A stretch of DNA of 64,000 nucleotides. Source: a phage. The notes under the pieces were generated by a model that was not told the origin of the DNA, did not search any database, and was given only the letters and a program-made list of their open reading frames with translations. Positions 28,511-64,000 of the stretch are shown here, piece after piece. Within the stretch, counting starts at the first letter, position 1, and each line of letters starts with the position of its first letter. The DNA lies in the NCBI GenBank assembly GCA_022520065.1, contig GCA_022520065.1_3942.1. The stretch is one strand, 5' to 3'. The position numbers were made by a program, and so were the translations under genes.

Positions 28511-28517
28511 TCCCTTG

Positions 28518-28575: not shown

Positions 28576-28589
28576 GATGAGGTGATTAA

Positions 28590-29155: not shown

Positions 29156-29160
29156 AATTT

Positions 29161-29189
29161 AAGGCTCCTTTTTTACGGGAGCCTTTTTT
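29161..29189 (+). terminator. Terminator at the convergence of plus-strand structural genes and minus-strand thyA
   Basis: Hairpin aaggctcc...ggagcctt followed by tttttt; sits between convergent genes. Confidence 0.6.
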
Positions 29190-29193
29190 GTTT

Positions 29194-30093: not shown

Positions 30094-30094
30094 A

Positions 30095-31413: not shown

Positions 31414-31426
31414 AGTTAATCACCTA

Positions 31427-31786: not shown

Positions 31787-31787
31787 A

Positions 31788-32087: not shown

Positions 32088-32292
32088 CTTTCTTCTTCCG
32101 TTTGCGTGAAGTGTCAATCAATGAATCTATGTTTGTAGCCCTAACCTTTTCACGTTCATCGTTAAGATAATCATCAAGAGCCTTTTCAATCTGTGAATCA
32201 TCTTGACAGATAACTGTAAAGACTGTAAAGCCGTCTGTATCGTCAATTATCTTACCATAACCGCCTCTGGGATGTAACTTTTTAAGAGCCAT
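32080..32292 (-). CDS. hypothetical protein
   Basis: 70-aa ORF, Lys-rich C-terminus. Confidence 0.35.
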   Translation of the reverse strand: MALKKLHPRGGYGKIIDDTDGFTVFTVICQDDSQIEKALDDYLNDEREKVRATNIDSLIDTSRKRKKKDE

Positions 32293-32293
32293 A

Positions 32294-32677
32294 TCAAATA
32301 CCTGTGCAGCTTCTGTTTTCTAAGAAATATTCAACACCGTACATAGCTTTTTGCATCAAATCTTCTTTAAACTGGATACGGTGGTTGAGCATCGCCTGTA
32401 CATCAATATCGTCATGGTGTTTCTCTTTAATGTTTGCAGATTGCAGGAAATACTCTGCAAGAACACGATACTGGTAGTCAGTCACCTTATCAGTCATCTC
32501 TGTCAAAGACTCTTCAGAGATGGGTTTAAGTAACTCACCATTAGCTAGAGCAACACCTTTTACAATCTGGCAAGTGTCTACTGGAACACCTGATAAATCC
32601 ACATTTGGAAGTTCTGTTGCATTAACTGGTAAATTCATTGCCATAACCATTGCAGCAGCTAATAAAACCTTTTTCAT
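32294..32677 (-). CDS. secreted/periplasmic protein with signal peptide
   Basis: N-terminal MKKVLLAAAMVMAMNLPVNA signal-peptide-like sequence. Confidence 0.5.
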   Translation of the reverse strand: MKKVLLAAAMVMAMNLPVNATELPNVDLSGVPVDTCQIVKGVALANGELLKPISEESLTEMTDKVTDYQYRVLAEYFLQSANIKEKHHDDIDVQAMLNHRIQFKEDLMQKAMYGVEYFLENRSCTGI

Positions 32678-32721
32678 AATGACCTCAAAGTTATATTAAA
32701 TTTTGTATTACATTGAGTATA

Positions 32722-32768
32722 AAAATAAGCTATAACACCTGACTTGTCAACAGATTTTATAGCTTATT
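32722..32768. promoter_or_regulatory. 13-bp perfect inverted repeat flanking a TTGACA-like hexamer (operator- or origin-like)
   Basis: aaataagctataa (32722-32734) and ttatagcttattt (32756-32768) separated by 21 nt. Confidence 0.4.
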
Positions 32769-32796
32769 TGGCAGATTTTTTATAAGGCTACTGCCA

Positions 32797-32865
32797 TCCT
32801 TCCATACCCTACCTTACCACACCCAACCATACCTAACCAAACTACACCATACAATACCTTATTAA
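32797..32865. repeat. Degenerate pentamer repeat array (CCNWA)n, G-rich on the minus strand
   Basis: About 12 tandem units ccata/cccta/cctta/ccaca/cccaa ...; second less regular C/A-rich block near 32923-32999. Confidence 0.5.
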
Positions 32866-33246
32866 AAGACCCTCTTAAAGACCTTTTAAAAAGGTAAGTC
32901 TCATTTTAATGTAGCTGAGACTAACTACCCATACATTACCGCACCATATTATACCCTACCCCACCATACTTCACTGCACCGAGCCACGCATTACATCACT
33001 TAAAAACCCTTTTCAAAGACTCTTAAGTGATGCTGGTGAGTACCCGTTGGTTTATGATGCTCAGTATACTCACCAAATTTTCTATGTCAACAACTTTTAT
33101 AAAAAAGTTCTGATAGCTATATGCGTCACGAAACAAAAGATTGTAAACAAGACACCCATTGCAAAAGATGTGTCCAAAAGCTTACTTGCAACGTATGACA
33201 ATACAAAGACAACCAGTATAAATAGAATGACTGTACTGAACATAGT

Positions 33247-34350
33247 TTACTCATAATCCCTAATAACTAGCCCTACAGGAAACTGTAAAGAACCTTTACG
33301 AGTCATCTTCTGGAACTGAACAGTTAAAGGTTTCCCGATAAACTCTTCAGGATGTTCAGCAAGATACTGTTTCTTCTCGTGTGTAGTTTTCCATGAAACA
33401 TCTACAAAGACGTTAGGAAGAGTCTCTACAACGAACTTACCATGACCACGCTTATCGGTCTTTACACCAGTCACTTTAAACTCTTCAGTGTGCATCTTCT
33501 TGTGCTTAATCAAGAAGTATGAACGGTGACAACACTCATAGAAGGAGTCTTCAGAGATTGAACGGTACATTGCACCTTCAAACTTAGCTTCAACCCACTT
33601 ATCATGAGCTTCATCAAACTCTTCCCAAGAATTTACACGACGAGATTTAACAGGAACAACTTTACAGCCGTCTCTAAAGTCATTCAATGGTGAAGTCTCA
33701 ATAATATCTCTACGCTCAGGCCACGTTTTAGTACTGTCACAGATATCATACCAGTAGAACTTAAGTGAGTGTCTGTCAGGATTGTCTTCATTTTTAATCA
33801 TAGAGACAATATCTTCTAAGTCCCACCCATGAGCATAAATCTCACCATCAAATTCATCAACATCTTTATGGAGCCTCAACATTGCCATAATGTCAGGTAT
33901 TAGCTCAGTAGGAATTTTATAAATAGTGTTCTCACGAGAATATGCTGTAAATACACTGCCAATACTCAAGTGTCTTGAAATTCTACAACGGACACCATCA
34001 AGTTTTGGTTGAGCATCAGCAGGGAACTTCAGATACTTTGCATGGCTAACCTTTGCAGCATCATGAGCAAGCTGTACACCTACCTTCTCAGTGTTCTGTG
34101 CAGACTCTTTTGTGTAAGCATAACCTTTGCGGTCTACTTGCTTTTTATACTTAGCAGCAACTTCAAAGAGAGCTTGCTGTTCAGCATTACGCTCATTCTT
34201 TTTACCGATGTTCTTAGGCTCTGCTGTGTACTCTTCAAACATCATCTTGCCATTTTCTTTACCGTAGGTTGTAATAACTTTGTCACCTACAGCAACGCAT
34301 GACCAGACGTTGAAGGAACCGTCTTTATTTTGTTTGTACAGAATTGTCAT
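33247..34350 (-). CDS. ATP-dependent DNA ligase
   Basis: Adenylation motif KLDGVRC (KxDG); start set to ATG 34350 with AGAGG RBS (track start 34386 also possible). Confidence 0.85.
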   Translation of the reverse strand: MTILYKQNKDGSFNVWSCVAVGDKVITTYGKENGKMMFEEYTAEPKNIGKKNERNAEQQALFEVAAKYKKQVDRKGYAYTKESAQNTEKVGVQLAHDAAKVSHAKYLKFPADAQPKLDGVRCRISRHLSIGSVFTAYSRENTIYKIPTELIPDIMAMLRLHKDVDEFDGEIYAHGWDLEDIVSMIKNEDNPDRHSLKFYWYDICDSTKTWPERRDIIETSPLNDFRDGCKVVPVKSRRVNSWEEFDEAHDKWVEAKFEGAMYRSISEDSFYECCHRSYFLIKHKKMHTEEFKVTGVKTDKRGHGKFVVETLPNVFVDVSWKTTHEKKQYLAEHPEEFIGKPLTVQFQKMTRKGSLQFPVGLVIRDYE

Positions 34351-34555
34351 TTTTAACCTCTGAGTGATACCAAGTGTCACAAGCATTACATGCGTAAAGC
34401 TCTAAGTCGTTTTTATCTGGTTTATGGAAACAGTTTGACCCACAACGACACCGGAATAACTTACCATCAACACGAAGAATGAATGTTTCAAGCTCACCCT
34501 CTTCTGTAAGGACGGCGTTATTATATTTGTTATCTTTATCCATTTGTACTCTCAC
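34325..34555 (-). CDS. hypothetical zinc-binding protein
   Basis: CRCGSNC ... CNAC cysteine clusters; overlaps ligase start. Confidence 0.4.
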   Translation of the reverse strand: MRVQMDKDNKYNNAVLTEEGELETFILRVDGKLFRCRCGSNCFHKPDKNDLELYACNACDTWYHSEVKNDNSVQTK

Positions 34556-34699
34556 CTGTGTCAGATTTCATATAAGACCTGTCGCTAAACCTTTTAATGA
34601 AATGTACAACGCATTTCGGTGTATCTTTTGCATCTTTGATGTGCGACCTTTCGAAACTGCGCACTGTGAAGGTTGCATCTGTCATTGTTTGCTTAGATT

Positions 34700-34906
34700 T
34701 CATTTTCTCTTACCACCAATTTCTACGTCAATAACTTGAACATCACCAGCAACATCAAACTTATGAATGATGCTTTCCACAGTGTAAGTCCAACCATCAA
34801 TGCGAACCAACTCACCTTCTCGTGGGACGATTGGGTTACGTTGAGCTACCGTTGTAGTAGAGTGAACAACATCATAACAATAGATATAGTTTACTAGGAC
34901 TTCCAT
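34700..34906 (-). CDS. hypothetical protein
   Basis: Start set to internal ATG 34906 with GAGGG RBS to avoid overlap with lipoprotein gene. Confidence 0.4.
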   Translation of the reverse strand: MEVLVNYIYCYDVVHSTTTVAQRNPIVPREGELVRIDGWTYTVESIIHKFDVAGDVQVIDVEIGGKRK

Positions 34907-34916
34907 CGTGAAACCC

Positions 34917-35186
34917 TCACTCAATAACCGTAGTGTGTGATTGACCATTTTTGCCATAGCTATAAGATGTTGTTGTTTGGGAGTTTGGACATCTGACAAC
35001 AACAATATCTCTGCTTATAGCATCACCATGTAACTTGTATACTCTGCAATCTTGCATCTCTGGTGGGAGACTGTAAGAAGCATTTTTATCTTCATAAGAA
35101 GGGTTGCAGCCAGATAGAAAAACAACACCAAGCGCAATTACTGCTTTCCACATAATACTTCCCCAGAGACTGTACATTTTCTTCAT
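34917..35186 (-). CDS. putative lipoprotein
   Basis: Signal peptide ending in lipobox LSGC (VVFLSGCNPS). Confidence 0.5.
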   Translation of the reverse strand: MKKMYSLWGSIMWKAVIALGVVFLSGCNPSYEDKNASYSLPPEMQDCRVYKLHGDAISRDIVVVRCPNSQTTTSYSYGKNGQSHTTVIE

Positions 35187-35416
35187 AGCAACTCCAGAAT
35201 ATCAATACGTTCACCTTTGAGTACTCCAGTACGGTCTTTTGCAATCTTACCGTCAACGATAAGGATGTGTGTAGACCTTAAAGCGTCGTTGTTAAAGGTT
35301 TTTACGAACTTGCTAGGCATGACTACAATGCACATCTCCTGAATCAGCTCTGGAGTGTAGCAGTTATCATGAAGTTGCTGAATAACGTCTGCAAGTGTCA
35401 TTTTTGATGTCTCCAA
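35183..35416 (-). CDS. hypothetical protein
   Basis: 77-aa ORF. Confidence 0.4.
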   Translation of the reverse strand: METSKMTLADVIQQLHDNCYTPELIQEMCIVVMPSKFVKTFNNDALRSTHILIVDGKIAKDRTGVLKGERIDILELL

Positions 35417-35613
35417 TATTCAATGTCTATAAGTTCTTGTGCAATGCTTTTAAGGTTACTTTTAAGGAAAACTTTCTCACCACCAGACAGGGAGGTATTA
35501 TCAATGAGTCTGTTCATTCTCTCAAACAACTTCTGTTTACGATTCTTGATGGTTTCCTTTGAAGCACCTTTCATCATTGCTGCATGGGTTCTTCCACGGT
35601 GGCTCATAATCAC
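35398..35613 (-). CDS. hypothetical protein
   Basis: 71-aa basic ORF. Confidence 0.4.
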   Translation of the reverse strand: MIMSHRGRTHAAMMKGASKETIKNRKQKLFERMNRLIDNTSLSGGEKVFLKSNLKSIAQELIDIEYWRHQK

Positions 35614-35668
35614 TCCTATATAAGATACAGTATAAGGTACTCTTCCATGAGCACCTTGTCAATACTAA

Positions 35669-38368
35669 TTAGTGAACCTCAAGCCAGCTTTTACCAACCT
35701 TACCAGTACCTGTAACAAGTGTTTCTTTCTTAAGACCTAAGTTCTTAGAAGCTTGCCCGTAATACCAATCAGTAACTGCTTTTACTTCTGCCGTCATACT
35801 CTCTGGACATTCCCAGCTTGTCTCATCGTGATATGCGCACAATAAGCGAGCACCTATAGCTGGTTTACGCCCATTTAGTTTCATCAACCCTTCGTCAATC
35901 ATGCGACGACAAGCAAGGTTAATTGCCTCATTTTGAATCTGGGCCTCTGAACCCATCAAAAGGTAGTTCAACAGTTTGTGTGGAGATTTACACCACAACC
36001 AAGCTCCAGCAACCTTTACAAAACCCCCTTTAGAAATTGCAGCAGTCTTACCAAACACCTCTTCAAGTACCTTTTTAGTTGCTTTGTAGTCAGCTTCCAA
36101 GTCATCTAACAGCTTCTTAATTTTAGGCAAACGTATAAAGTAAGTTTGTTTAGTCAGTGCACCTTCCTGAGTAGTTGCAGCTTTAATCGTCTTAGCAAAC
36201 TTCTCATCCCCTGCACCGAACAGCAGTGCATAGATACCATTCTTAGCTTTCTTACGACCCTTACTAATCTCATGGAGAAGATTCTCATCCTGAGTAGCTC
36301 GACAAGTCAAGATATCCTGCTCATCATTCAAGCTAAAGTAGATACTGTTCAGTGTATGTGCATCAGTCCCTGAATAGACAACGTACAGGTCATTCTCAGA
36401 GTCATAACGAAGGTACTTATCAATCTCTGGGTTTAGGTACTCATCAAAATGTTTGCAGTAATAGCGTCCATCTTCTTGACGAATAAACTCAATCTCTTCT
36501 TTACCTTGCGTTACCGCTTTGGTGAACTCTTTATCACCCATAAAGTTACAAAGAAGAACTAGCTGGGCTGAGTTCATATCTACAGAGACAACGTTAGTAC
36601 CTTCCTCACAAATCCACACTGCCCTCATTGGTTCCCCATAGACAGCAGCACCAGACGGTACGTTTACAATACCATATTGTGTCATACGTCCAGTTGAAGT
36701 ACCAAACACCATTGCGCCAGCACTAAGGCGACCATCAGGACGAATCTGGTTCAACCAACCTTTTTCATCATCCTTTGAGTTCTCAATAGTTCTGCGTCTG
36801 TGCATCAAAGTATAGTACTTAGCAATCTTCTGTCCAAGCTCACCTTCAATCGTATCATAAGATGATTCCGTAAGTTTTGGTGAAGTACGGATTAAGCAAG
36901 GTTCAAGCAAATCTGTGTACTTCTTCACAGACCAGTTATGCTCGATGTACTGGACGCCTTCATGCTCGACATAACTCAAACCACACCGTTCAACCATCTC
37001 CTGCCACTTAGGATGCTTTGTAATCATCTTTTTGTTGTCTTTGAAACGACAAACTTTGACAGGGCGACCATCTGAGTCTTTCTTGTAGTTCCAGTCATCT
37101 GGAATCCAACCAACTGATTTCAAGTAGTCTTTAACAACTGCTACCTGAGTCATACGAGAAACTTCAAACTCAATTGGTGTATATGGTGCATCAATCAATC
37201 CTGTGTAGCGACTTGAATCCAGTTCAAAGTGGTTAACAACATGGCTGTTATAGTACTTCACAGTCTTAACTGTCTTCACTGGCTTCCAGTCTTTGCATTT
37301 CTTACCAATCTTTGCATTCAACTCGTTGCAAATTGCACGAGCATCCTTCATTGCTACAAAACCTTCCTTGTACTCTTCACCAGTTACAGAGTTGGTTGGT
37401 GTATAGCAATTTCTCTTTTCAATGTTAAAAATCTTTGTAGTTGGCTTACCAAATGGCTTGATTTCATATGTCTGCATCTCACCGTTACGTACCTGCTGAC
37501 GGTACTTCGTCTTAGGGTACTTGGTAATTCTCTTCAGTCCATCTGCATGACCGAACGCTTCAACATACTCATTCCAAGCTTTTGCAAACTCTTCTCCAGT
37601 AACTTTACCTTTAGTCTTAATAGTTGGAGGAAGATGTGGTTCAACTTCTGAAGCAAGCTCATTAGTCAACTTGTCAAGTTCCTTCACATGGAACTCCATA
37701 AGCTCTTTATCAGCTTTCCAACCATTGATAGCTTGTTGACTCATCCAGAAAGATGTTTCTTTAGCTCGCATATAGGTTTCATAAGTGTCTATACCACACT
37801 TCTTTAACTTCAGGTATTCATTATCCAGTGCACATTTAGTTTTGGCGTTAATACGGATATCTTCTACAACACGAGTGAAGATTTCTGCATTCCATACACC
37901 CCAATGTTCAATCTCTGGTTTACGTACACCAACACGAGCACCCCATGCTGCCAAGCCATGAGCACCTTTATAGCCTTTTGGAGTTGGTCTATCCATCCAC
38001 TGAACACGAGATTGGATAAGAGAATCCTGAAAGAAATTACTCCACGGCTTACACTTTGGATTATCAAAGTTCCATAAATCAGGTGCAATGTGATTGAAAA
38101 CCCACCAGTCATAACCCAGACCATTATGGATGCAAAGTCGTTTCGCCTTTAATGCAAACTCAATACCTTCACGCAAACCACCCTTAATGTACTTGGTGTA
38201 CTTGTGACCGAGGATAGGCTCATCTGTAAAAACCCATACAGGTGGCTCTTCATCATCAGATTTATAGTCTGCGAAAGCCATTACGTGCACTTTAGTGAAC
38301 TCAAGGAGTAAACCATCAGTTTCTGTATCACCAACTAAATGTAAGTTTTTAAAATCTACGTTTTCCAT
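35669..38368 (-). CDS. DNA polymerase, family A, with 3'-5' exonuclease domain
   Basis: Exo motif VGDTETDGL, polymerase motifs (VSVDMNSAQLVLL, KNGIYALLFGAG, CAYHDE); start set to ATG 38368 with AGAGGGA RBS. Confidence 0.85.
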   Translation of the reverse strand: MENVDFKNLHLVGDTETDGLLLEFTKVHVMAFADYKSDDEEPPVWVFTDEPILGHKYTKYIKGGLREGIEFALKAKRLCIHNGLGYDWWVFNHIAPDLWNFDNPKCKPWSNFFQDSLIQSRVQWMDRPTPKGYKGAHGLAAWGARVGVRKPEIEHWGVWNAEIFTRVVEDIRINAKTKCALDNEYLKLKKCGIDTYETYMRAKETSFWMSQQAINGWKADKELMEFHVKELDKLTNELASEVEPHLPPTIKTKGKVTGEEFAKAWNEYVEAFGHADGLKRITKYPKTKYRQQVRNGEMQTYEIKPFGKPTTKIFNIEKRNCYTPTNSVTGEEYKEGFVAMKDARAICNELNAKIGKKCKDWKPVKTVKTVKYYNSHVVNHFELDSSRYTGLIDAPYTPIEFEVSRMTQVAVVKDYLKSVGWIPDDWNYKKDSDGRPVKVCRFKDNKKMITKHPKWQEMVERCGLSYVEHEGVQYIEHNWSVKKYTDLLEPCLIRTSPKLTESSYDTIEGELGQKIAKYYTLMHRRRTIENSKDDEKGWLNQIRPDGRLSAGAMVFGTSTGRMTQYGIVNVPSGAAVYGEPMRAVWICEEGTNVVSVDMNSAQLVLLCNFMGDKEFTKAVTQGKEEIEFIRQEDGRYYCKHFDEYLNPEIDKYLRYDSENDLYVVYSGTDAHTLNSIYFSLNDEQDILTCRATQDENLLHEISKGRKKAKNGIYALLFGAGDEKFAKTIKAATTQEGALTKQTYFIRLPKIKKLLDDLEADYKATKKVLEEVFGKTAAISKGGFVKVAGAWLWCKSPHKLLNYLLMGSEAQIQNEAINLACRRMIDEGLMKLNGRKPAIGARLLCAYHDETSWECPESMTAEVKAVTDWYYGQASKNLGLKKETLVTGTGKVGKSWLEVH

Positions 38369-55833: not shown

Positions 55834-56100
55834 ATGGGAATTTTAGGTAATATGAAAGTTGGATTCTTGAAGGCACTGGAAAAAGCAGCAGCAATTGTTT
55901 CTATGACTGGAAAGCAGGTCGGTGTAGATGCTTCAGCGGTTGCACAGGTTCTTGCAAGCCAAATTGAACAGCAGCCTTACATCTACGTAGGACGTGGTAA
56001 AGGTGGTAAGAAACAAGCCCACCGCCAATCTGGTGCAGCAGCTATTAAACGAGCAGCTAAGAAAGCTCGTAACCGTAAACGTAACAAGAAGGTTAAATAA
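55834..56100 (+). CDS. hypothetical small basic protein
   Basis: 88 aa, C-terminus KRAAKKARNRKRNKKVK. Confidence 0.4.
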   Translation: MGILGNMKVGFLKALEKAAAIVSMTGKQVGVDASAVAQVLASQIEQQPYIYVGRGKGGKKQAHRQSGAAAIKRAAKKARNRKRNKKVK

Positions 56101-56102
56101 CC

Positions 56103-56423
56103 ATGAGCAAAGTTTATAACACTCGTAAATTACAGATTTTCGTACTGTGCCAGTTTATGGCTAAAGAATACAACTTCTACTATTGTGGTACAGGTTTTAT
56201 TAGCGATGATGATGGCTCATACCTCCCATTCAAAGAGGCTGTAAAACTCTTCAATGAAGAGAAAAGTTCTAAGAAAGATATTGAAAAGGTTAAGCTAACC
56301 TACAGCAAGAAAGATAAGAAGATTATCTGCCTAGATAACTTTGTGAAAGTTACTGGAGAAGCAAAAGAGTTTATGGATGAGAGTGAGATTTCATTCACAA
56401 GCATCTTGAAAGTAGCTCAGTAA
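56103..56423 (+). CDS. hypothetical protein
   Basis: 106-aa ORF followed by terminator. Confidence 0.4.
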   Translation: MSKVYNTRKLQIFVLCQFMAKEYNFYYCGTGFISDDDGSYLPFKEAVKLFNEEKSSKKDIEKVKLTYSKKDKKIICLDNFVKVTGEAKEFMDESEISFTSILKVAQ

Positions 56424-56474
56424 ACAGATACTATAAGGGGACTGTAAAGGTTCCCTTTTTATTTTGGAGGTAAA

Positions 56475-56990
56475 ATGTATCTGTCAAACCTGAAACGTTC
56501 GGTTGCAATGTCAGTTCTAAGACTCAGCTTTGATGAGCGTCAAGAGTTTATAGACTCCCACAAATATGACCCTTCAAATTCTAATCACATGGTTCTTTGG
56601 AATCGTGATAACTTCCGTGAAAGAGCACTTGTCCGTTATTACCCACACTACACAATAGATAACCTGTATGAATGGTGTGTTGTGAAGAACACCATTGCAA
56701 CACTGAACAATCTTTGCAGGTATACGGGTAAGCAAACATTTACATTAGGTCATCACAAACCTGTTACAAAAGGTGGTGAACATCACTGTGCAAACTGGTT
56801 TATCCAAACTAAAGCTGATAACCAGAAGCAAGGAGATAGCCTCCTAAGTATCCCTAAGATGACCTATGAAGAGCAAGAGAAATATATCAAAAATAATATG
56901 CCAGATGTGCTTGACAACAACTATACAGATTTGGCAATATCTCTCCTGTTGAAGTTCGAGACAGTTTATAGGGCAACTTATAATGGCTAA
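56475..56990 (+). CDS. HNH endonuclease-like protein (putative)
   Basis: GHHKPVTKGGEHHCANWFIQTKADNQKQG resembles an HNH motif. Confidence 0.45.
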   Translation: MYLSNLKRSVAMSVLRLSFDERQEFIDSHKYDPSNSNHMVLWNRDNFRERALVRYYPHYTIDNLYEWCVVKNTIATLNNLCRYTGKQTFTLGHHKPVTKGGEHHCANWFIQTKADNQKQGDSLLSIPKMTYEEQEKYIKNNMPDVLDNNYTDLAISLLLKFETVYRATYNG

Positions 56991-57261
56991 AGAAAAGTGG
57001 GAGATTTTACCATTAGTCAGTGAAGGAGGTAATGGTTGTGAAATGTACATGATACGTGGTCATGTTCCAGAGCCAATTGCACTTGAGATGGTAAACAACT
57101 TTACAGATGGTTCTTACAAAGACTTAGGCGAACCAACTGTCAAGCAACAATGGGTTAAACCTGTACCAGACAGCACAGGTAACTGTAGTGTACTTTATCA
57201 CGTTGTAGACCCTGCAAAATGCAAATCTGCAATGGCAGTAACAAACGTAACTTTTGATTGA
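56983..57261 (+). CDS. hypothetical protein
   Basis: 92-aa ORF. Confidence 0.4.
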   Translation: MAKEKWEILPLVSEGGNGCEMYMIRGHVPEPIALEMVNNFTDGSYKDLGEPTVKQQWVKPVPDSTGNCSVLYHVVDPAKCKSAMAVTNVTFD

Positions 57262-57272
57262 GAGAGAAAACT

Positions 57273-58154
57273 ATGAAAACATCTATCCGTGTTACAGTTC
57301 ATTCACCAACTAAAGGAACTCATGAAGAAGAGTTTAACATCATCCAATTTCCTTCTGGTGAGATTGGTGGACACTTTTCGCCAGAGTTTGTTGATTTCAC
57401 TGCTTATGCAGCATCATCCATCAACAATGTGATTATGATTGTAAAAGGTTATGATAAGGACACTTTGTTTGCTGTGGCACTTGCTAAAGAAGCAATTGAT
57501 GATTTAATTCCTCATGATTATGCTTTAAAGACTGTCATCTTTTACTACTTACCAAATGCACGTTATGACCGTCACATGTTTAAAGGCGACGCAGCAGCTT
57601 TAAAGGTTTTTGCTAAACAGATTAATGCAATGGGATTTGGCGCAGTCTGTGCAGTTGACCCTCACAGCTATGTACCAGATAACCTGTTTAACTGCTTCCA
57701 GAGTATTCCTCAAAAGGAAATTGCAGTCCACTATGCAAATGACCCACTGATTGATTACTTAGTAGCCCCAGATGCAGGTGCTGCTAAGAAGATTGCAGAG
57801 ACTGCTAAAGAGGTGGATAAACCATACATCACAATGTCTAAAGTGCGTAACCTTAAGACTGGTGAAATTACTGGTATGCGAATCCTTGATGATGTTGATT
57901 TGACAGATAAAACCGTCATGATTCTGGATGACATCTGTGATGGTGGTCGAACCTTCATAGAAGCAGCTAAGCATCTTCGTGAAGCAGGTGCAAAACGTGT
58001 GGAACTCTATGTAACACATGGTATCTTCTCTAAAGATGTTGAAAACCTTCTTGACAATGGCATTGACCACATCTACACTACAAACTCTTTAGGGGAAGCT
58101 AAAGACCGTGGCTTAACACATTATAGCCAAGTTACTGTAGCAAACCTTGATTAA
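57273..58154 (+). CDS. ribose-phosphate pyrophosphokinase (PRPP synthetase)-like protein; candidate ADP-ribose pyrophosphokinase (Adps)
   Basis: Phosphoribosyltransferase PRPP-binding motif VMILDDICDGGRT; about 294 aa; directly upstream of NAMPT-like gene; start set to ATG 57273. Confidence 0.7.
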   Translation: MKTSIRVTVHSPTKGTHEEEFNIIQFPSGEIGGHFSPEFVDFTAYAASSINNVIMIVKGYDKDTLFAVALAKEAIDDLIPHDYALKTVIFYYLPNARYDRHMFKGDAAALKVFAKQINAMGFGAVCAVDPHSYVPDNLFNCFQSIPQKEIAVHYANDPLIDYLVAPDAGAAKKIAETAKEVDKPYITMSKVRNLKTGEITGMRILDDVDLTDKTVMILDDICDGGRTFIEAAKHLREAGAKRVELYVTHGIFSKDVENLLDNGIDHIYTTNSLGEAKDRGLTHYSQVTVANLD

Positions 58155-58163
58155 AACTTTATA

Positions 58164-58184
58164 GGGGCTTAAAAGCCCCATTTT
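58164..58184 (+). terminator. Rho-independent terminator between the Prs-like and NAMPT-like genes
   Basis: Hairpin ggggc-ttaaaa-gcccc followed by a-tttt. Confidence 0.5.
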
Positions 58185-58199
58185 GAGAGAGATTAAAAG

Positions 58200-59981
58200 A
58201 TGACTAAATCACTTTATGCAGTACCAGCAGGTTTAAATGCAGATGCTTACAAATCTGGTCATGTTTACCAGTATCCTAGTGCAACAGAATATTTGATGTT
58301 CAACCTGACACCACGTAGCGACAAATGGTTTAACAGTCCATTAGCAATTGATGGTGTAGTCGCTTTTGGTATTCAACGTTTTGTTAAAGATTACTTGATA
58401 GACCACTGGAATGCTACGTTCTTTGAACGTGACAAAAAAGAAGCAATTGACGAAATCTTAGAAGTCATGAATGGTGTTCTGGGCAAAGATGCTATCGGTC
58501 GAGAGCATTGGGAAGCACTTCACGACTTAGGTTATCTACCAGTTGAAGTATACGCTGTAGAAGAAGGCACAGTTGTCCCTATGCGTGTTCCGATGATTGT
58601 TTTCCAGAACACTGTTTCAGGTTTCCATTGGGTAGCAGGTTATCTGGAAGATGCTTTCTCTGCTGAGATTTGGAAGGCTTGTACCATTGCAACTATTGCA
58701 TTGCACTACAAACGTATCTGTAAGAAGTGGGCTGACCTTACTTGTGACAACGACTTGCATTTGCCTTATCAGTGCCATGACTTTGCTATGCGTGGTATGT
58801 CCGGCTTTACTGATGACGCATTTAACGCTGTAGGCCACTTAACCAGCTTTAAAGGAACTGATAGCTTCCCTGCTGTGTATACGGCTAAACGAATCTATGG
58901 ACAGTCCTACCCAATCTCTGATATTGGTAGCTCTGTACCAGCCACTGAGCACTCTGTAATGTGTGCAAACATTGCTTGGGAAGGTGGTAATGAGTTGATT
59001 GAAGAAGAAAGACGCTTTAAAGGTGAGTTACAAACCTTCCGTCGTTTCTTAACAGAAACTTACCCAACTGGTATTGCAAGTATTGTTTCAGATACTTATA
59101 ACTTCTGGAGAACTGTGTCAGAAATCTTACCAGCACTCCGTAAAGAAATTATGGAACGTGACGGTAAACTGGTAATTCGTCCTGACTCTGGAGACCCTGT
59201 ACATATTGTCACAGGGTACAAAGCAATCCATTTAGAGTGTGCTAAAAAGTCTTATTACGAACACTTAAGCAAGCTTGAAGCCAGCGACACAATGTTGAAT
59301 GCTGTTCTGAACATGAAGCTTGAAAACATCAATTATGGTATTGCTGGATGGCTACTGTCAGAAGGCTACGAAATGGTTGTTGACAGAGAAGACTTTGAAG
59401 TTGCTGATACAGTGCTGTTGAAAAACGCATATATGGTTGGTTCTGCAAACGTTGTAACACGTCCTGTAGCAGAGATTGATGGAGCTATTAAGACCTTGTA
59501 TAACATCTTTGGAGGAACTATCAACTCTAAAGGTTTTAAGGTACTGGATGAACATATCGGCCTTATCTATGGTGACTCTATCACGTTGGAACGTGCAAAC
59601 GAAATCCTGAAGCGTCTGTATGAAATGGGGTTTGCAAGCTCTAACGTGGTGTTTGGTGTAGGCTCTTACACTTACCAGTACATGACTCGTGACACCTTTG
59701 CATTTGCTGTCAAAGCAACTCTTGCAAGCATTGGTGGCAAAGAGATTATGCTTGCAAAAGACCCTAAAACAGATAGTGGTGTTAAGAAATCTGCCTTTGG
59801 TGGTGTAGCGCCTATGTGGGATGGTGATAAGTTGAAAGCTGTAGATGGCTACGGATTCCAGAGTTTTGCAGATGTACTTGACCACCCAGCTTGTGCTTTA
59901 CGTTTAGTCTTTAGTGACTCTGAGCAGTTTGGTTACACAACTCTTGGTGATATTCGAAATAATATTGACAAGCAGCTTTAA
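58200..59981 (+). CDS. nadV: nicotinamide phosphoribosyltransferase-like protein (NadV/NAMPT family; candidate Namat)
   Basis: 593 aa; N-terminus NADAYKSGHVYQYP matches the NAMPT DSYK(V/S)xHxxQYP region. Confidence 0.75.
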   Translation: MTKSLYAVPAGLNADAYKSGHVYQYPSATEYLMFNLTPRSDKWFNSPLAIDGVVAFGIQRFVKDYLIDHWNATFFERDKKEAIDEILEVMNGVLGKDAIGREHWEALHDLGYLPVEVYAVEEGTVVPMRVPMIVFQNTVSGFHWVAGYLEDAFSAEIWKACTIATIALHYKRICKKWADLTCDNDLHLPYQCHDFAMRGMSGFTDDAFNAVGHLTSFKGTDSFPAVYTAKRIYGQSYPISDIGSSVPATEHSVMCANIAWEGGNELIEEERRFKGELQTFRRFLTETYPTGIASIVSDTYNFWRTVSEILPALRKEIMERDGKLVIRPDSGDPVHIVTGYKAIHLECAKKSYYEHLSKLEASDTMLNAVLNMKLENINYGIAGWLLSEGYEMVVDREDFEVADTVLLKNAYMVGSANVVTRPVAEIDGAIKTLYNIFGGTINSKGFKVLDEHIGLIYGDSITLERANEILKRLYEMGFASSNVVFGVGSYTYQYMTRDTFAFAVKATLASIGGKEIMLAKDPKTDSGVKKSAFGGVAPMWDGDKLKAVDGYGFQSFADVLDHPACALRLVFSDSEQFGYTTLGDIRNNIDKQL

Positions 59982-59995
59982 AAGTATATGATAAG

Positions 59996-60018
59996 AGGCT
60001 CCTACGGGAGCCTTTTTA
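59996..60018 (+). terminator. Rho-independent terminator after NAMPT-like gene
   Basis: Hairpin aggctcc-tacg-ggagcct followed by ttttt. Confidence 0.65.
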
Positions 60019-60034
60019 ATTTCTGGAGAAAACT

Positions 60035-60370
60035 ATGAAAATCAAAGAGATGAACATCAACATTGTCTTAGAAGAACGTTGGGAGAACATCAATAAGCCT
60101 GAAGATGGCCATAAGTTTCTTAACAAAATTTTAGTAGCAGCTAAAGAAGAACTGACTGGCAAGGTCGCAGCAGCAATTACAATAAAGGTCTGCGTAAAAG
60201 GTCTTCCAGACAATCACCAATTTGCGCTTGACGAGTTTAAAAAAAGCTTCTACAATCCAAACAAACAGATACTTGAAAGTAACTTTGCAGTATCTACAAG
60301 TATCGTCCATGACAGAAGCTTTATCCTTTACAAGAATATGAGAGGTGAGTCATGCAAGCATATTGGATAG
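60035..60370 (+). CDS. hypothetical protein
   Basis: 111-aa ORF. Confidence 0.4.
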   Translation: MKIKEMNINIVLEERWENINKPEDGHKFLNKILVAAKEELTGKVAAAITIKVCVKGLPDNHQFALDEFKKSFYNPNKQILESNFAVSTSIVHDRSFILYKNMRGESCKHIG

Positions 60371-60528
60371 AAATTTTACTGTCACTTGGTAGTGTAGCAG
60401 TATTTGTTTACCTCCTTTGTAAGTACTTTGCAGAGCACAAAAAATGTGACTACTGTAATGGAGAGGGGTACATAAGGGCAGGATGTTGCCCTATGTGTGG
60501 TGGTTCTGGTAAAATGTTTAACAAGTAA
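60352..60528 (+). CDS. hypothetical small membrane-anchored zinc-ribbon protein (58 aa)
   Basis: Short ORF read manually: hydrophobic N-terminus then CDYCNGEG ... CPMCGGSG. Confidence 0.35.
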   Translation: MQAYWIEILLSLGSVAVFVYLLCKYFAEHKKCDYCNGEGYIRAGCCPMCGGSGKMFNK

Positions 60529-60556
60529 TTTAACAGTAAACTAAGAGGAAAGTATT

Positions 60557-62923
60557 ATGCGCATGGTAAACGACCACGCAGAAGTGATTAAGAGTTCAAC
60601 TTCTTTAGAGACGTCTCAAGCACAGATTACAATGACACCTGAAATGTTCAGCCTTTTGAGTTCTGGTGTATATACCTTTAAAGAAAGGGCAGTGATTCGT
60701 GAACTGTCATGTAACGCAGTAGATGCTCAGAAAGAGGCTGGAAAAGAGAACATCCCGTTCCATGTGCATTTACCTACTCGTTTTGAGCCTTACTTTGAAG
60801 TTCGTGATTTTGGAACTGGATTGACTCATGATAAAGTTATGAGTTTGTACCTAAACTATGGGGCTTCTACGAAGAATGACTCTAATGACTACATTGGTGC
60901 AATGGGTATCGGCTCAAAATCACCATTTGCAATTGCTCAGTCATTCACAGTGTCTAGCTATGTTGACGGTGTTGTTAATAAGTACTCTGTTTATCTTGAG
61001 AATGGTATCCCTCAAGTAACTAAGCTGACCACTAACCCAACAAAAGAACCTAATGGTTTAGCTGTACGTGTGGCAGTTGCTGACCACCGTATTTCAAAGT
61101 TCTTTGAAGAGGCTGGTAATGTATACTCATACTTTGCTGTAAAACCAGAGAGTAATGTGGAGTATAATGATATATTAGCAGATATGGATGTGATTGCTCG
61201 TGAAGAAGGTGTCTATGATGCCATGACTCATAAGCATAGCTGGCGTTCAAGCAGCAATAGAACAGAGTTTAACGTGGTTATGGGTAATATTGCCTACCCA
61301 GTTAATATGGAGGCATTACTTGGTGATGATTTCTTCAAAGTATTACCAGAATTTTTCCGCAGGAGCATAGACCTTGTAAACATCTACATGCCTATTGGTT
61401 CAGTTGCTATTGCAGCTTCTCGTGAAGCATTGCAGATGAATGACACGACAAAAAATGTTATCATCGAGGCTACTAAAAAGATAACTGAAGCAATTACAAA
61501 GGATGTTATCAAGAAAGTTAATAGTCAACCTACACTCATGGATGCTGCACAGGCTTATGCTGAGTTACGCTTGAACTCACGAGAGATGTTTAATGTTGTG
61601 TGTCCAAAGCTAGAGTGGGGAGGTGTTAAGCTTGATTCTCTGGAAGAAGAATTACTAAACATTCGTCGTGGAATTATCTACGCAGAAGACGGCTCAGTCA
61701 TTTACGAACGTGACGGTAAAGGTAATATTAAGGTTGATAGGAACGGGAACAATATCCCTAAAGTAGATTATCTTTATGACCCAGTTGCTTATGTCAAGTT
61801 CAACTCTTTAGAGAGTAAGATTCGTGCAACATCGCTTTCCTACACTCAAGAGGCAAGTATGTTCAATATCTTTGGCGCAATGCGTAAAAGCCAAATTGAA
61901 CAGTTTTTGTTTGTTATAAATGACCGTCGCAATAAAAACGGTACTGAGAAGACTGTAGGACGCAATCAAATCTTGCGTGGTGCATGTCGAGACTATGCCA
62001 GTGAGTCGAACCTGTTTCACAGATACAATGGTATTGTCTTTGTATTCTCGACTGAAAAAGAGCTAGATGACTTAATCAATCTACACAAACTTGATAAAAG
62101 CTTGTTAAAGATTGTGAAGATGTCTGATAAGGAACACCATTATCAGCGTAAAGAAGCTGTAAGAGGTGTTGTAAAACTCTGGAAAGCTGTTCCAGCAGAA
62201 GGTGTAGCTTCCTATAAAGAGGTTTCAGAGGACTTTGATACAATTGAAGAGCCTCAACTTTATATCAAGGCAGTAGGCGACACTGTTGATGGCGAATGTT
62301 TTTGCTCATCTCCAGAAGATGTAGCTAAGTCAGTTGCCAATGTCATTGGGAAGACAGTCTATGTTTTCCGAAAAGCAAATTGGAAAAAGATACCAGAAGA
62401 CTGGATTGAAGTAGATGAGAAACTCTTGAACGACAGTTTAACTGATGTTCATTGGATTAATCATAACAGGTATATGACACGTATCTATATGAATGGTGTC
62501 CTTGACCTTACAAGCAGTTGGATTATTGCCAGAAACTTTACGTTCAATAACAGGAAGATTTCTCGTGGCTATTGTTATTCACGGGATACAAACAAAACTA
62601 TCTTCTTAGAAGGTAATGAAGATGCTGTAGAGGCAATGTTTGGTAAAATCCAATACGTTGCTGCACCGTTTGCATATACTTACACTATTAGTAGGTTGCA
62701 AACTTTGAAAGACTGCCTTGACAATGATACAAAGCTGTACAAGAAAATTAAGAAAGCTGGTGACCGCATGGTCATTAAGGTGACAAACTACCTTTCAAAA
62801 AGAAAACAAGAAAACTTCTTGCTTTCTCATTTAGATTGGAATAAAGTGTCACCCATCGAAGTGAGTAAGTTCTTAGGCTTTGATGTGAAGTGTGTTCCAG
62901 AAGGGACTACAATTTACGATTAA
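60557..62923 (+). CDS. rIIA: rIIA-like protein with N-terminal GHKL-type ATPase domain
   Basis: Bergerat-fold motifs RELSCNAVDA, VRDFGTGL, GAMGIGSKSPFA; 788 aa; assignment to rIIA is from memory of T4 rIIA. Confidence 0.55.
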   Translation: MRMVNDHAEVIKSSTSLETSQAQITMTPEMFSLLSSGVYTFKERAVIRELSCNAVDAQKEAGKENIPFHVHLPTRFEPYFEVRDFGTGLTHDKVMSLYLNYGASTKNDSNDYIGAMGIGSKSPFAIAQSFTVSSYVDGVVNKYSVYLENGIPQVTKLTTNPTKEPNGLAVRVAVADHRISKFFEEAGNVYSYFAVKPESNVEYNDILADMDVIAREEGVYDAMTHKHSWRSSSNRTEFNVVMGNIAYPVNMEALLGDDFFKVLPEFFRRSIDLVNIYMPIGSVAIAASREALQMNDTTKNVIIEATKKITEAITKDVIKKVNSQPTLMDAAQAYAELRLNSREMFNVVCPKLEWGGVKLDSLEEELLNIRRGIIYAEDGSVIYERDGKGNIKVDRNGNNIPKVDYLYDPVAYVKFNSLESKIRATSLSYTQEASMFNIFGAMRKSQIEQFLFVINDRRNKNGTEKTVGRNQILRGACRDYASESNLFHRYNGIVFVFSTEKELDDLINLHKLDKSLLKIVKMSDKEHHYQRKEAVRGVVKLWKAVPAEGVASYKEVSEDFDTIEEPQLYIKAVGDTVDGECFCSSPEDVAKSVANVIGKTVYVFRKANWKKIPEDWIEVDEKLLNDSLTDVHWINHNRYMTRIYMNGVLDLTSSWIIARNFTFNNRKISRGYCYSRDTNKTIFLEGNEDAVEAMFGKIQYVAAPFAYTYTISRLQTLKDCLDNDTKLYKKIKKAGDRMVIKVTNYLSKRKQENFLLSHLDWNKVSPIEVSKFLGFDVKCVPEGTTIYD

Positions 62924-62928
62924 AGTGT

Positions 62929-62958
62929 TTGACAAGGGGCTTTGAAGCCCCTTAGAAT
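62929..62958 (+). promoter_or_regulatory. Promoter TTGACA-N18-TAGAAT with GC hairpin in spacer, downstream of the rIIA-like gene
   Basis: -35 at 62929-62934, hairpin ggggc-tttgaa-gcccc at 62936-62951, -10 TAGAAT at 62953-62958. Confidence 0.4.
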
Positions 62959-63003
62959 AGCCTTACAAAATGATTTATTAACTAACAAGAGAGAGTAATA
63001 AGA

Positions 63004-64000
63004 TGACTACTAAAACTAAAGCACAGATTGACGCAGAAATTTACGAACTGGTTAAAGAAGGTAAGCTGACTAAAACAGCTATTGCACAGAAGTTCAATAC
63101 CTCAACCCGTTCAGTTGGTCGTGCTGTAGAGCGTCATGAAGCAACCTTAAAAGGGAATAAGAAGGCAACTGCTGCACCAGCTACGAAGACTTTGAAACAA
63201 GTTGCTAAGACTTTTAAAAAGAAAGCTGGCAAACCAGTTGAAAAGGTTGTTAAAGATGCTGTACAGAAAGCTCCAGTAAATAAACTGCATGAAGCTATGC
63301 AGAAAGATGACAAGATTGAGTACATGATTACTGGCGACTCTGTAATTATGACTTACGGTTCAGAGTCTGAAATTGTTGAATCTACTCATCCGAACTATCA
63401 AGAGATTGTAGTTCATGTTGTGAAAGGTGAGTTTAAGAAAGCCTTTGAACTGATGAACATTCGTAAGTCTATCGAAAACTTCACTCAGGGTGCTATCACA
63501 ATCAAAGGTGACAAACTATTCTACGGTGCTGTTGAGATGCGTTCTACTCTGGTTGACCGTATTCTTCACATGATGAAGACTGGAGATAAAGGTTTTGAAC
63601 GCCTTGTAATGTTCTTTGAAAAACTGATGGAAAACCCATCTAAAGATTCTGTAGAACAACTTTGGGGCTTCGTATCTCACCTTGATGTTGAAATTGATGA
63701 AGAAGGTTACATCATCGGTTGGAAGAAAGTCTCTACTCGTGAAGGCAAGCTGGTTGACTCTCACACCTACAAAGTACCTAATGATTTGGGTAACATTGTA
63801 GAAATGCCACGTTGGATGGTTGATAATAACCGTAACGTAACTTGCTCTCAAGGTCTTCATGTTGGTGCTTGGGATTACGTTCGTTGCTTCTCAGGTGATA
63901 CAATCCTGAAGGTTCGTGTCCATCCACGAGATGTTGTATCTGTTCCAACTGATTACAACGATATGAAGATGCGCTCATCCCGTTATGAAGTTGCAGCAAT
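63004..64000 (+). CDS. rIIB: rIIB-like protein (partial, 3' end beyond window)
   Basis: Open frame from ATG 63004 to window end; follows rIIA-like gene; N-terminal HTH-like segment; identity by synteny only. Confidence 0.35.

What the first reader, a model, noticed from the sequence alone, without database searches (positions are those of the whole stretch)
60352..64000. rIIA-like GHKL ATPase with a preceding small zinc-ribbon membrane protein and a partial rIIB-like gene
The 788-aa protein has three Bergerat-fold ATPase motifs (E-x-x-x-N-A-x-D-A; D-F-G-x-G; G-x-x-G-I-G-x-K-S), which I recall as the N-terminal signature of T4 rIIA. rII proteins protect against prophage-encoded exclusion (RexAB-type abortive infection). 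Just upstream is an unannotated 58-aa ORF with a TM helix and two CxxC pairs. Downstream a long ORF runs off the window end and is rIIB-like by synteny only.
Basis: partly seen in the sequence, partly recalled or inferred. Interest (0 to 1): 0.4.

Follow-up and report, generated by a model that had tools for sequence, protein, structure and literature searches.

The report
Felix O1-type phage rIIA–rIIB counter-defence genes
This is the well-known rIIA/rIIB gene pair of a Felix O1-like coliphage, preceded by a small conserved membrane zinc-finger gene of unknown role; it is correctly read by the first stage, already annotated in hundreds of public phage genomes, and therefore ordinary.

Summary
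ORFs lie at 60352-60528 (58 aa), 60557-62923 (788 aa) and 63003 to the window end (332 of about 369 codons).

**Identity.** The window is a Felixounavirus, 97% identical to phages LMP34 and EcoM2.
- The downstream gene is rIIB by sequence, not only by synteny: 44% identical to T4 rIIB, E=2e-60. It has an N-terminal HTH and a conserved C-terminal domain with no solved relative.

**Published function in relatives.**
- Deleting rIIA or rIIB in Bas63 (rIIA 97% identical) lowers plating on QatABCD hosts 10^4-10^5-fold.
- Knock-down in SUSP1 sensitises it to lambda RexAB.
- The GHKL domain of rIIA was described in 2021.

**The 58-aa gene.** It encodes a TM helix plus two CxxCxGxG motifs. It precedes rIIA in four Ounavirinae genera but lies elsewhere in RB49-like phages. 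Its Bas63 orthologue is dispensable against QatABCD. A functional link to rII is therefore unsupported.

**Verdict:** already known; low interest.

The parts
60035..60370 (+). 111-aa ORF of unknown function (PHROG 4262). It overlaps the start of the small ORF by 19 nt. It is context, not shown to be part of the rII module.
   Evidence: phrog_4262, E=8e-68, full length. The same 19-nt overlap is present in EcoM2, UAB_Phi87, Bas63, Moogle and SUSP1.
60352..60528 (+). 58-aa small membrane protein: an N-terminal TM helix (about residues 5-24) followed by two CxxCxGxG motifs (C32/C35 and C46/C49), i.e. one DnaJ-type zinc centre. The zinc finger is predicted cytoplasmic by the positive-inside rule (KYFAEHKK follows the helix). 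Function unknown.
   Evidence: phrog_3931, E=1.5e-33, unknown function. Weak DnaJ zinc-finger similarity below the family cut-offs. The four Cys and the Gly residues are invariant across Felixounavirus, Suspvirus, Mooglevirus, Kolesnikvirus and Krischvirus members.
60557..61606 (+). rIIA N-terminal module (residues 1-350): GHKL (Bergerat-fold) ATPase domain plus a second, transducer-like domain. This is the part conserved with T4 rIIA.
60701..60724 (+). GHKL motif I (N box): E49-L-S-C-N53-A-V-D56
   Evidence: E49, N53 and D56 are invariant in 68 homologues.
60806..60820 (+). GHKL motif II (G1 box): D84-F-G-T-G88
   Evidence: D84 and G86 are invariant; G88 is conserved in at least 90%.
60896..60922 (+). 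GHKL motif III (G2 box / ATP lid): G114-A-M-G-I-G-S-K-S122
   Evidence: G114, G117, G119 and K121 are invariant.
61607..62923 (+). rIIA C-terminal half (residues 351-788 plus the stop codon): confidently folded but lineage-variable, with no detectable similarity to the T4 rIIA C-terminal half in pairwise or profile-sequence comparison.
   Evidence: the alignment ends near residue 350; identity to homologues 0.14-0.27 against 0.5-0.65 in the N-terminal part; pLDDT mostly above 90. Iyer et al. 2021 describe this region as 'highly variable' (PMC7824862).
62929..62958 (+). rIIA-rIIB intergenic element: TTGACA-[AGGGGCT TTGA AGCCCCT]-TAGAAT. It is a near-consensus sigma-70-like promoter whose 18-nt spacer is a perfect 7-bp hairpin. 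Function untested.
   Evidence: The stem and -10 hexamer are invariant, and the loop variable, in EcoM2, UAB_Phi87, Bas63 and the divergent SUSP1.
63003..64000 (+). rIIB, truncated by the window end (332 of about 369 codons). Domains: N-terminal three-helix HTH (residues 6-51; nt 63018-63155), disordered Lys/Ala-rich linker (53-89), conserved C-terminal rIIB domain (from about residue 94).

Best explanation
The region is the rII counter-defence module of a Felixounavirus (Ounavirinae) phage: rIIA (788 aa) followed by rIIB (about 369 aa, cut by the window end).

**Architecture.** rIIA is a soluble protein. Its first 330-350 residues form a GHKL ATPase plus transducer-like domain of the Hsp90/MORC/Topo VI-B/MutL type with all nucleotide-binding residues intact. 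A lineage-specific C-terminal half follows. rIIB has an N-terminal helix-turn-helix, a disordered linker, and a C-terminal domain found only in phage rIIB proteins.

**Most likely mode of action.** The two proteins work as one unit. An ATP-driven conformational or dimerisation cycle of the rIIA GHKL module (inferred from the fold) lets the rIIA-rIIB complex stop host or prophage abortive-infection systems from firing. Those systems are lambda RexAB and QatABCD, shown in close relatives. My preferred, unproven mechanism is that the complex acts upstream of the effectors, on the phage DNA-protein intermediates those systems sense. This would fit the HTH in rIIB and the DNA-handling relatives of the rIIA ATPase. 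The alternative is direct plugging of a membrane channel.

**The 58-aa ORF.** The membrane zinc-finger ORF immediately upstream is a conserved Ounavirinae gene of unknown function. It is most probably not an obligatory part of the module.
For: **Identity**
- Family matches: phrog_612 E=1.7e-189 and phrog_609 E=1.1e-88.
- Homology to T4: rIIA E=1e-36 and hhalign E=1.4e-56; rIIB E=2e-60.
- The region is 92-97% identical at the DNA level to more than 200 Felixounavirus records annotated rIIA/rIIB.

**ATPase**
- The catalytic and nucleotide-binding residues are invariant.
- A homologue passes Pfam HATPase_c_3.
- The domain has been published: PMC7824862.

**Working as a pair**
- The gene order is conserved in all Ounavirinae checked.
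- A natural RIIA-RIIB fusion of 1049 aa exists in phage RB43, and phrog_609 (profile length 1055) matches both window proteins.
- Bas63 g84 and g85 are both depleted on qatABCD: -1.26/-1.30/-1.61 and -1.05/-2.46/-2.45.

**Function in relatives**
- Deleting Bas63 rIIA or rIIB lowers plating efficiency 10^4-10^5-fold on qatABCD, and complementation restores it. Window rIIA is 96.8% and rIIB 86.9% identical to Bas63.
- SUSP1 rIIA/rIIB knock-down lowers plating efficiency on lambda RexAB hosts. Window rIIA is 63.6% and rIIB 83% identical to SUSP1.

**HTH in rIIB**.

**Small ORF not required**: Bas63 g83 fitness on qatABCD is +0.77/+0.66/+0.81.
Against: - Nothing was tested on this phage itself. 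The function is transferred from relatives.
- The molecular mechanism of rII proteins is unknown in the literature read here.
- ATPase activity, complex formation and DNA binding are inferences from fold and motifs.
- Classical work (my own knowledge, not checked here) places T4 rIIA/rIIB in the membrane fraction, and RexB is a membrane channel. This favours a membrane site of action over my DNA-level proposal.
- Neither rIIA nor rIIB has a predicted TM segment. A membrane anchor such as the small ORF cannot therefore be excluded on sequence grounds alone.
- The window's own Pfam HATPase_c match is weak (E=0.12).
Confidence: 0.9

Rival explanations
1. The 58-aa TM/zinc-finger protein is a third, so far unrecognised component of the Ounavirinae rII module, for example a membrane anchor or assembly factor that recruits the TM-less rIIA/rIIB to the inner membrane.
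For: - It sits immediately upstream of rIIA in four Ounavirinae genera, even where rIIA has diverged to 35% identity.
- The zinc finger is predicted cytoplasmic.
- rIIA and rIIB have no TM segment of their own.
- The ORF sits among counter-defence genes: NAMPT and PRPP synthetase upstream, polynucleotide kinase downstream in relatives.
Against: - Whole-region collinearity in Ounavirinae (NAMPT ... rIIA-rIIB ... PseT) explains the synteny without any functional link.
- In RB49-like Krischvirus the homologue lies between nrdG and gene 55, not at rII.
- The family has only 12 clusters in 5.8 billion proteins, whereas rIIA occurs in 2915 phage records. Most rII modules therefore work without it.
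- T4's upstream rIIA.1 is unrelated.
- Bas63 g83 insertions are neutral on qatABCD, where g84 and g85 are strongly depleted.
Confidence: 0.08
2. The module is primarily a lysis-timing ('lysis inhibitor') function, as the database label 'RIIA/RIIB lysis inhibitor' says, rather than a counter-defence function.
For: The PHROG and GenBank product names say so. The T4 r mutants were named for rapid lysis (established knowledge).
Against: - Knock-down of rIIA/B in five phages, including the Ounavirinae phage SUSP1, does not impair infection without Rex but does with RexAB.
- Bas63 g84 and g85 are non-essential on laboratory hosts and conditionally essential on qatABCD.
- The spanin genes lie separately downstream in relatives.
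Confidence: 0.05
3. The 788-aa GHKL protein belongs to another GHKL family (MORC, type II topoisomerase B subunit, Hsp90 chaperone or MutL) and only resembles rIIA.
Against: - Sequence identity to those structures is only 11-15%.
- The HSP90 score is 42.7 bits against a 455-bit cut-off and covers only residues 30-134.
- No Toprim, MutL C-terminal, CW or Hsp90 C-terminal domains were found.
- The full-length match is to the rIIA PHROG.
- There is direct homology to T4 rIIA, and rIIB lies downstream.
Confidence: 0.02

Closest known systems
rIIA/rIIB of Escherichia phage JohannRWettstein (Bas63; bas63_0084/0085) and other Felixounavirus phages (LMP34, EcoM2, UAB_Phi87, Felix O1)
   Same: The gene order is the same: 111-aa ORF, 58-aa ORF, rIIA, rIIB. 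rIIA is 96.8-99.5% and rIIB 87-98% identical. The promoter-hairpin in the rIIA-rIIB spacer is identical. Bas63 rIIA and rIIB are experimentally required against QatABCD.
   Different: Only point differences. The window is not identical to any record in the phage collection (best 97.1% DNA identity over 4 kb). rIIB is truncated by the window end.
rIIA/rIIB of Escherichia phage SUSP1 (Suspvirus, Ounavirinae)
   Same: Same architecture and the same upstream small ORF. Knock-down sensitises the phage to lambda RexAB (PMC11879866).
   Different: rIIA is 63.6%, rIIB 83% and the small ORF 48% identical.
T4 rIIA (725 aa) and rIIB (312 aa), the classical rII locus
   Same: rIIA residues 1-350 are homologous (31% identity), with the same GHKL motifs. 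The rIIB C-terminal domain is 44% identical, and both rIIBs carry an N-terminal HTH. The rIIA-then-rIIB order is the same.
   Different: The rIIA C-terminal halves show no detectable similarity. The T4 upstream ORF rIIA.1 is unrelated to the 58-aa TM/zinc-finger ORF. The rIIB linker and length differ.
GHKL ATPase modules of Hsp90/TRAP1, MORC2/3, SMCHD1, Topo VI-B, MutL
   Different: Sequence identity is 11-15%. None of the partner domains that define those families is present. rIIA is a separate phage-specific branch.
DnaJ-type CxxCxGxG zinc-finger domain (for the 58-aa ORF)
   Same: Two CxxCxGxG repeats, enough for one zinc centre. There are weak matches to Pfam DnaJ_CXXCXGXG (E=0.003) and TIGR02349 (E=0.001).
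   Different: There is no J domain. It has only one of the two zinc centres of DnaJ. It is membrane-anchored. Its scores are below the family cut-offs.

Membership tests
rIIA (phage rII locus, A cistron) | Full-length sequence-profile match to the rIIA family | tested here: met
   phrog_612 'RIIA lysis inhibitor', E=1.7e-189, protein 1-770 against profile 1-716/725
rIIA (phage rII locus, A cistron) | Direct homology to the prototype, T4 rIIA | tested here: met
   BLASTP 31% identity over residues 24-317, E=1e-36. hhalign probability 100%, E=1.4e-56, 334 columns starting at residue 1 of both proteins. This covers the N-terminal half only.
rIIA (phage rII locus, A cistron) | N-terminal GHKL ATPase domain with intact nucleotide-binding motifs | tested here: met
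rIIA (phage rII locus, A cistron) | C-terminal half homologous to that of T4 rIIA | tested here: not met
   No significant alignment beyond about residue 350. This variability is a described property of the family (PMC7824862), so it does not argue against membership.
rIIA (phage rII locus, A cistron) | Encoded immediately upstream of rIIB on the same strand | tested here: met
   rIIA stop at 62923, rIIB start at 63003
rIIA/rIIB | Required for growth on hosts carrying Rex-type or other abortive-infection systems, dispensable otherwise | not testable with these tools
   Shown for relatives only: SUSP1 on lambda RexAB and Bas63 on QatABCD.
rIIB (phage rII locus, B cistron) | Homology to the conserved C-terminal domain of T4 rIIB | tested here: met
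   phrog_609 E=1.1e-88 for the window fragment. The 98%-identical complete orthologue against T4 rIIB gives 44% identity over 215 aa, E=2e-60. All homologues carry the precomputed Pfam family PF26926; that model is absent from the local Pfam copy.
rIIB (phage rII locus, B cistron) | N-terminal helix-turn-helix | tested here: met
rIIB (phage rII locus, B cistron) | Complete open reading frame | not testable with these tools
   The window ends after codon 332. Orthologues are 368-369 aa.
MORC / type II topoisomerase B / Hsp90 / MutL (other GHKL families) | Family-specific profile score and partner domains (Toprim, MutL C-terminal, CW zinc finger, Hsp90 middle and C-terminal domains) | tested here: not met
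   NCBIfam HSP90 42.7 bits against a 455-bit cut-off. No partner domains in Pfam or NCBIfam. Only fold-level similarity at 11-15% identity.
DnaJ zinc-finger domain (58-aa ORF) | CxxCxGxG repeats scoring above the family threshold, with a J domain | tested here: not met
   Two CxxCxGxG repeats are present, but Pfam DnaJ_CXXCXGXG scores 18.3 bits against a 32.7-bit cut-off, and a 58-aa protein has no room for a J domain. The 'heat shock protein' and 'chaperone' labels in some records over-interpret this.

The most novel reading that the evidence does not exclude
The conserved 58-aa membrane-anchored zinc-finger protein encoded directly upstream of rIIA in all Ounavirinae is a lineage-specific accessory of the rII system. 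For example, it could tether the TM-less rIIA-rIIB complex to the inner membrane, or counter a defence system not yet assayed. Its neutrality on QatABCD would then reflect context dependence rather than lack of linkage. A second untested novelty is that the invariant promoter-embedded hairpin between rIIA and rIIB sets the rIIA:rIIB expression ratio.
Probability: 0.08. Interest if true: 0.45.

Novelty: already known. Interest (0 to 1): 0.12.

Why it matters
rII genes are historically famous and widespread: rIIA homologues occur in 2915 of 50,697 phage records. Their mechanism is still unknown.

This locus adds no new information to that question. The genes, their GHKL and HTH domains and their counter-defence phenotypes in near-identical phages are already published or annotated.

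Its practical value is limited to two points.
- It confirms that the window is a Felixounavirus carrying an intact rII module next to an NAD+-salvage counter-defence pair.
- It flags one small conserved membrane zinc-finger gene and one conserved intergenic hairpin as cheap targets for follow-up in Bas63, where genetic tools exist.

Tried and rejected
1. **T4 rIIA.1 as a counterpart of the 58-aa ORF.** The T4 protein is a soluble, Cys-free 67-aa protein, so it is unrelated.
2. **Sequence search of rIIA and rIIB against PDB chains.** No hit for rIIA and only noise for rIIB. No solved structure of either protein exists in that copy.
3. **Pfam on the window proteins.** There was no above-threshold family. 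HATPase_c reached only E=0.12. The rIIB family PF26926 is missing from the local Pfam copy, so membership rests on PHROGs, on T4 comparisons and on precomputed tags.
4. **Wider search for the small ORF family with a five-member profile.** Only 12 clusters were found, all Ounavirinae- or Krischvirus-like. No new contexts were gained.
5. **Rfam scan of 56000-64000 at E<=0.1.** Nothing found.
6. **PADLOC.** rIIA's GHKL domain weakly resembles Tiamat TmtA (E=1.2e-8). I treat this as superfamily-level similarity, not as evidence of a defence gene.
7. **Foldseek against afdb50 for the rIIB C-terminal domain.** The library was unavailable. The BFVD search returned only rIIB proteins.
8. **PhageMaP main text for g81-g83 and g86-g87.** They are not discussed. 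I read only the qatABCD and TerY-P sheets of the fitness tables, so g83 phenotypes on the other defence systems were not checked.
9. **Literature search for rIIA together with GHKL, Bergerat or HATPase.** No paper with both terms was found in that search. The statement was found through a second search.


Full report
**1. Observation**

The mechanical ORF list and the sequence itself show three same-strand ORFs exactly as described.
- 60352-60528: 58 aa.
- 60557-62923: 788 aa, with the strong Shine-Dalgarno AAGAGGA 8 nt upstream.
- An ORF starting at ATG 63003 that runs to the end of the window without a stop: 332 codons.

The three Bergerat-fold motifs are at E49-x3-N53-x2-D56, D84-x-G-x-G88 and G114-x2-G-x-G-x-K-S122. 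The small protein has one strongly hydrophobic segment at about residues 5-24. It also has two CxxCxGxG motifs, C32/C35 and C46/C49.

**2. Which genome this is**

The 4-kb stretch 60000-64000 is 95-97% identical to many Felixounavirus genomes (Ounavirinae), for example LMP34/33/25, EcoM2 and UAB_Phi87. It is 92-94% identical to Felix O1 and wV8.

In those records the two large genes are annotated rIIA and rIIB. The small ORF is annotated as hypothetical protein, putative membrane protein or 'heat shock protein'.

The local gene order in relatives is as follows:
- PRPP synthetase
- NAMPT
- (hypothetical ORFs)
- 111-aa ORF
- 58-aa ORF
- rIIA
- rIIB
- hypothetical ORF
- polynucleotide kinase
- spanins

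The window matches this order as far as it reaches. Complete rIIB orthologues are 368-369 aa, so about 37 codons are missing.

**3. rIIA**

*Sequence evidence*
- PHROG 612 ('RIIA lysis inhibitor') matches the whole protein at E=1.7e-189.
- T4 rIIA aligns at 31% identity over residues 24-317, E=1e-36.
- A profile of 68 homologues aligns to T4 rIIA from residue 1 to about 350 at E=1.4e-56.
- Beyond residue 350 there is no detectable similarity to T4. [quoted passage not shown]
- In the 68-sequence alignment, E49, N53, D56, D84, G86, G114, G117, G119 and K121 are invariant. So are R289 and E290, in an 'ASRE' motif of the second domain.
- Pfam HATPase_c is only marginal for the window protein (E=0.12).
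- NCBIfam HSP90 family (E=2.6e-11) and the sacsin N-terminal ATP-binding domain (E=4.8e-7) match residues 30-134.
- A 65%-identical homologue passes the HATPase_c_3 gathering score, and T4 rIIA reaches E=1.6e-4.

*Structural evidence*
- An AlphaFold2 model built on the alignment has mean pLDDT 87.6.

rIIA therefore carries a GHKL ATPase plus a transducer-like second domain of the gyrase/Hsp90/MutL/MORC type. It has no predicted TM segment.

This domain assignment is not new. Iyer et al. 2021 state that rIIA orthologues combine an N-terminal GHKL ATPase with a variable C-terminal domain.

**4. rIIB**

The sequence evidence is in fact strong.
- phrog_609 matches at E=1.1e-88.
- The complete EcoM2 orthologue is 98% identical to the window fragment. 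It is 44% identical to T4 rIIB over 215 residues, E=2e-60.
- All database homologues carry the precomputed Pfam family PF26926. That model is not in the local Pfam copy.

The AF2 model (pLDDT 85.7) shows three parts:
- a three-helix N-terminal domain, residues 6-51;
- a disordered Lys/Ala-rich linker, residues 53-89;
- a mixed alpha/beta C-terminal domain.

The C-terminal domain matches only other phage rIIB proteins in BFVD. One of these is a natural 1049-aa RIIA-RIIB fusion in phage RB43. That fusion explains why phrog_609 (profile length 1055) matches both window proteins. It also argues that the two proteins act together.

**5. Function**

None of this can be tested on the window itself, but close relatives have been tested.
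- **Bas63 on QatABCD.** PhageMaP (bioRxiv 10.1101/2024.10.10.617714) found that deleting Bas63 g84 or g85 lowers plating efficiency 10^4-10^5-fold on qatABCD hosts, and complementation restores it. In the GenBank record bas63_0084 is rIIA and bas63_0085 is rIIB. They are 96.8% and 86.9% identical to the window proteins.
- **SUSP1 on RexAB.** CRISPRi-ART (PMC11879866) showed that knock-down of rIIA or rIIB in SUSP1, another Ounavirinae phage, lowers plating efficiency only on hosts expressing lambda RexAB. SUSP1 rIIA is 63.6% and rIIB 83% identical to the window proteins.
- **T6 rIIB as a trigger.** Wein et al. (bioRxiv 10.1101/2023.05.28.542683) showed that T6 RIIB is itself the trigger of a CARD-gasdermin defence system and is toxic when expressed alone.

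The best-supported reading is therefore an early counter-defence pair that neutralises abortive-infection systems.

How it does so is unknown. From the anatomy I infer an ATP-driven conformational or dimerisation cycle in rIIA coupled to rIIB. I favour action on the nucleoprotein signal that the defence systems sense. The reasons are the HTH in rIIB and the fact that most structural relatives of the rIIA ATPase handle DNA. The classical membrane-level model is not excluded.

**6. The small ORF**

*Where it occurs*
- The protein (PHROG 3931, unknown function) is found in 264 phage records, essentially all Ounavirinae.
- It lies directly upstream of rIIA in Felixounavirus, Mooglevirus and Suspvirus.
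- It also does so in the distant Kolesnikvirus phiEa21-4 (gp117), whose rIIA is only 35% identical.
- The four Cys and the Gly residues of the two CxxCxGxG motifs are invariant.

*Why a functional link to rII is unlikely*
- The whole region is collinear in this subfamily, which explains the synteny.
- In RB49-like Krischvirus phages the homologue sits between nrdG and gene 55, away from rII.
- The family comprises only 12 clusters in a 5.8-billion-protein database, whereas rIIA is present in 2915 phage records.
- T4's upstream ORF rIIA.1 is unrelated.
- In the PhageMaP qatABCD table the Bas63 orthologue g83 has fitness +0.77/+0.66/+0.81. By contrast g84 scores -1.26/-1.30/-1.61 and g85 scores -1.05/-2.46/-2.45.

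I conclude that a functional link to rII is unsupported, though it is not excluded for other defence systems.

The 'heat shock protein' and 'chaperone' annotations rest only on the sub-threshold DnaJ zinc-finger similarity.

**7. Verdict**

- Everything of substance is already annotated or published: gene identities, the GHKL domain, the HTH and the counter-defence phenotypes in near-identical phages.
- Novelty: already known. Interest: low.
- The only loose ends are the function of the 58-aa membrane zinc-finger protein and a conserved promoter-embedded hairpin between rIIA and rIIB.

Noticed in passing
window 62929-62958: The rIIA-rIIB spacer holds TTGACA-[AGGGGCT TTGA AGCCCCT]-TAGAAT, a near-consensus promoter whose 18-nt spacer is a perfect 7-bp GC-rich hairpin. 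It is the only one of 17 TTGACA-N16-19-TAnnnT sites in the window with such a hairpin. The stem and -10 hexamer are invariant in EcoM2, UAB_Phi87, Bas63 and the divergent SUSP1, while the loop varies (TTGA, TCAA, GAAA). Its function is unknown: rIIB promoter, processing site or attenuator.
   Followed up: partly
window 57258-59981 (PRPP synthetase 57258-58154; NAMPT 58200-59981): An NAD+-salvage gene pair lies just upstream of the rII module. Its Bas63 orthologues g79 and g80 are reported to counter Sir2-HerA. In relatives a polynucleotide kinase (PseT-like) lies two genes downstream of rIIB. The region looks like a cluster of counter-defence genes, which makes the intervening unknown ORFs (111 aa at 60035-60370; 58 aa) candidates by association.
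   Followed up: partly
window 59965-60016: TTGACA-16-TATGAT (11 of 12 matches) overlaps the NAMPT stop codon. It is immediately followed by a terminator-like hairpin, GGCTCC-TACG-GGAGCC plus TTTT. This is probably the transcript boundary ahead of the 111-aa, 58-aa and rIIA genes.
   Followed up: no
window 60557-60631 (rIIA codons 1-25); records NC_005282.1, EU877232.1, MZ726792.1: Felix O1, wV8 and some other records start both the genome and rIIA 75 nt later, at Met26. The longer N-terminus is conserved in homologues: M1 is present in at least 90%. It also aligns with T4 rIIA from residue 1. The short starts are therefore probably mis-annotations. Because many records are cut at rIIA, the small ORF ends up at the far end of the linear record.
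   Followed up: partly
literature: bioRxiv 10.1101/2024.10.10.617714: The paper states that Bas63 g84 and g85 share 'high sequence homology (>80%)' with T4 RIIA/B. Direct comparison of the near-identical window and EcoM2 proteins with T4 gives 31% identity for rIIA (N-terminal half only) and 44% for the rIIB C-terminal domain.
   Followed up: yes
public records MG065668.1 (Campylobacter phage A126), GU169904.1 (Staphylococcus phage SA1): Records labelled as Campylobacter and Staphylococcus phages contain this Felixounavirus small ORF at 91-97% amino-acid identity, and for A126 the small ORF-rIIA DNA at 94% identity. They are probably contaminated, chimeric or mislabelled.
   Followed up: no
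window 69-5216: There is a cluster of 26 tRNA genes at the start of the window, typical of Felixounavirus genomes.
   Followed up: no
window 28000-38000: GC skew turns negative here. This indicates a block of genes transcribed from the minus strand in an otherwise plus-strand window.
   Followed up: no
rIIA residues 20-134 (window 60614-60958): The GHKL domain gives a significant match (E=1.2e-8) to TmtA of the Tiamat anti-phage system in PADLOC. A phage counter-defence ATPase and a host defence ATPase thus share a GHKL branch. The meaning was not explored.
   Followed up: no
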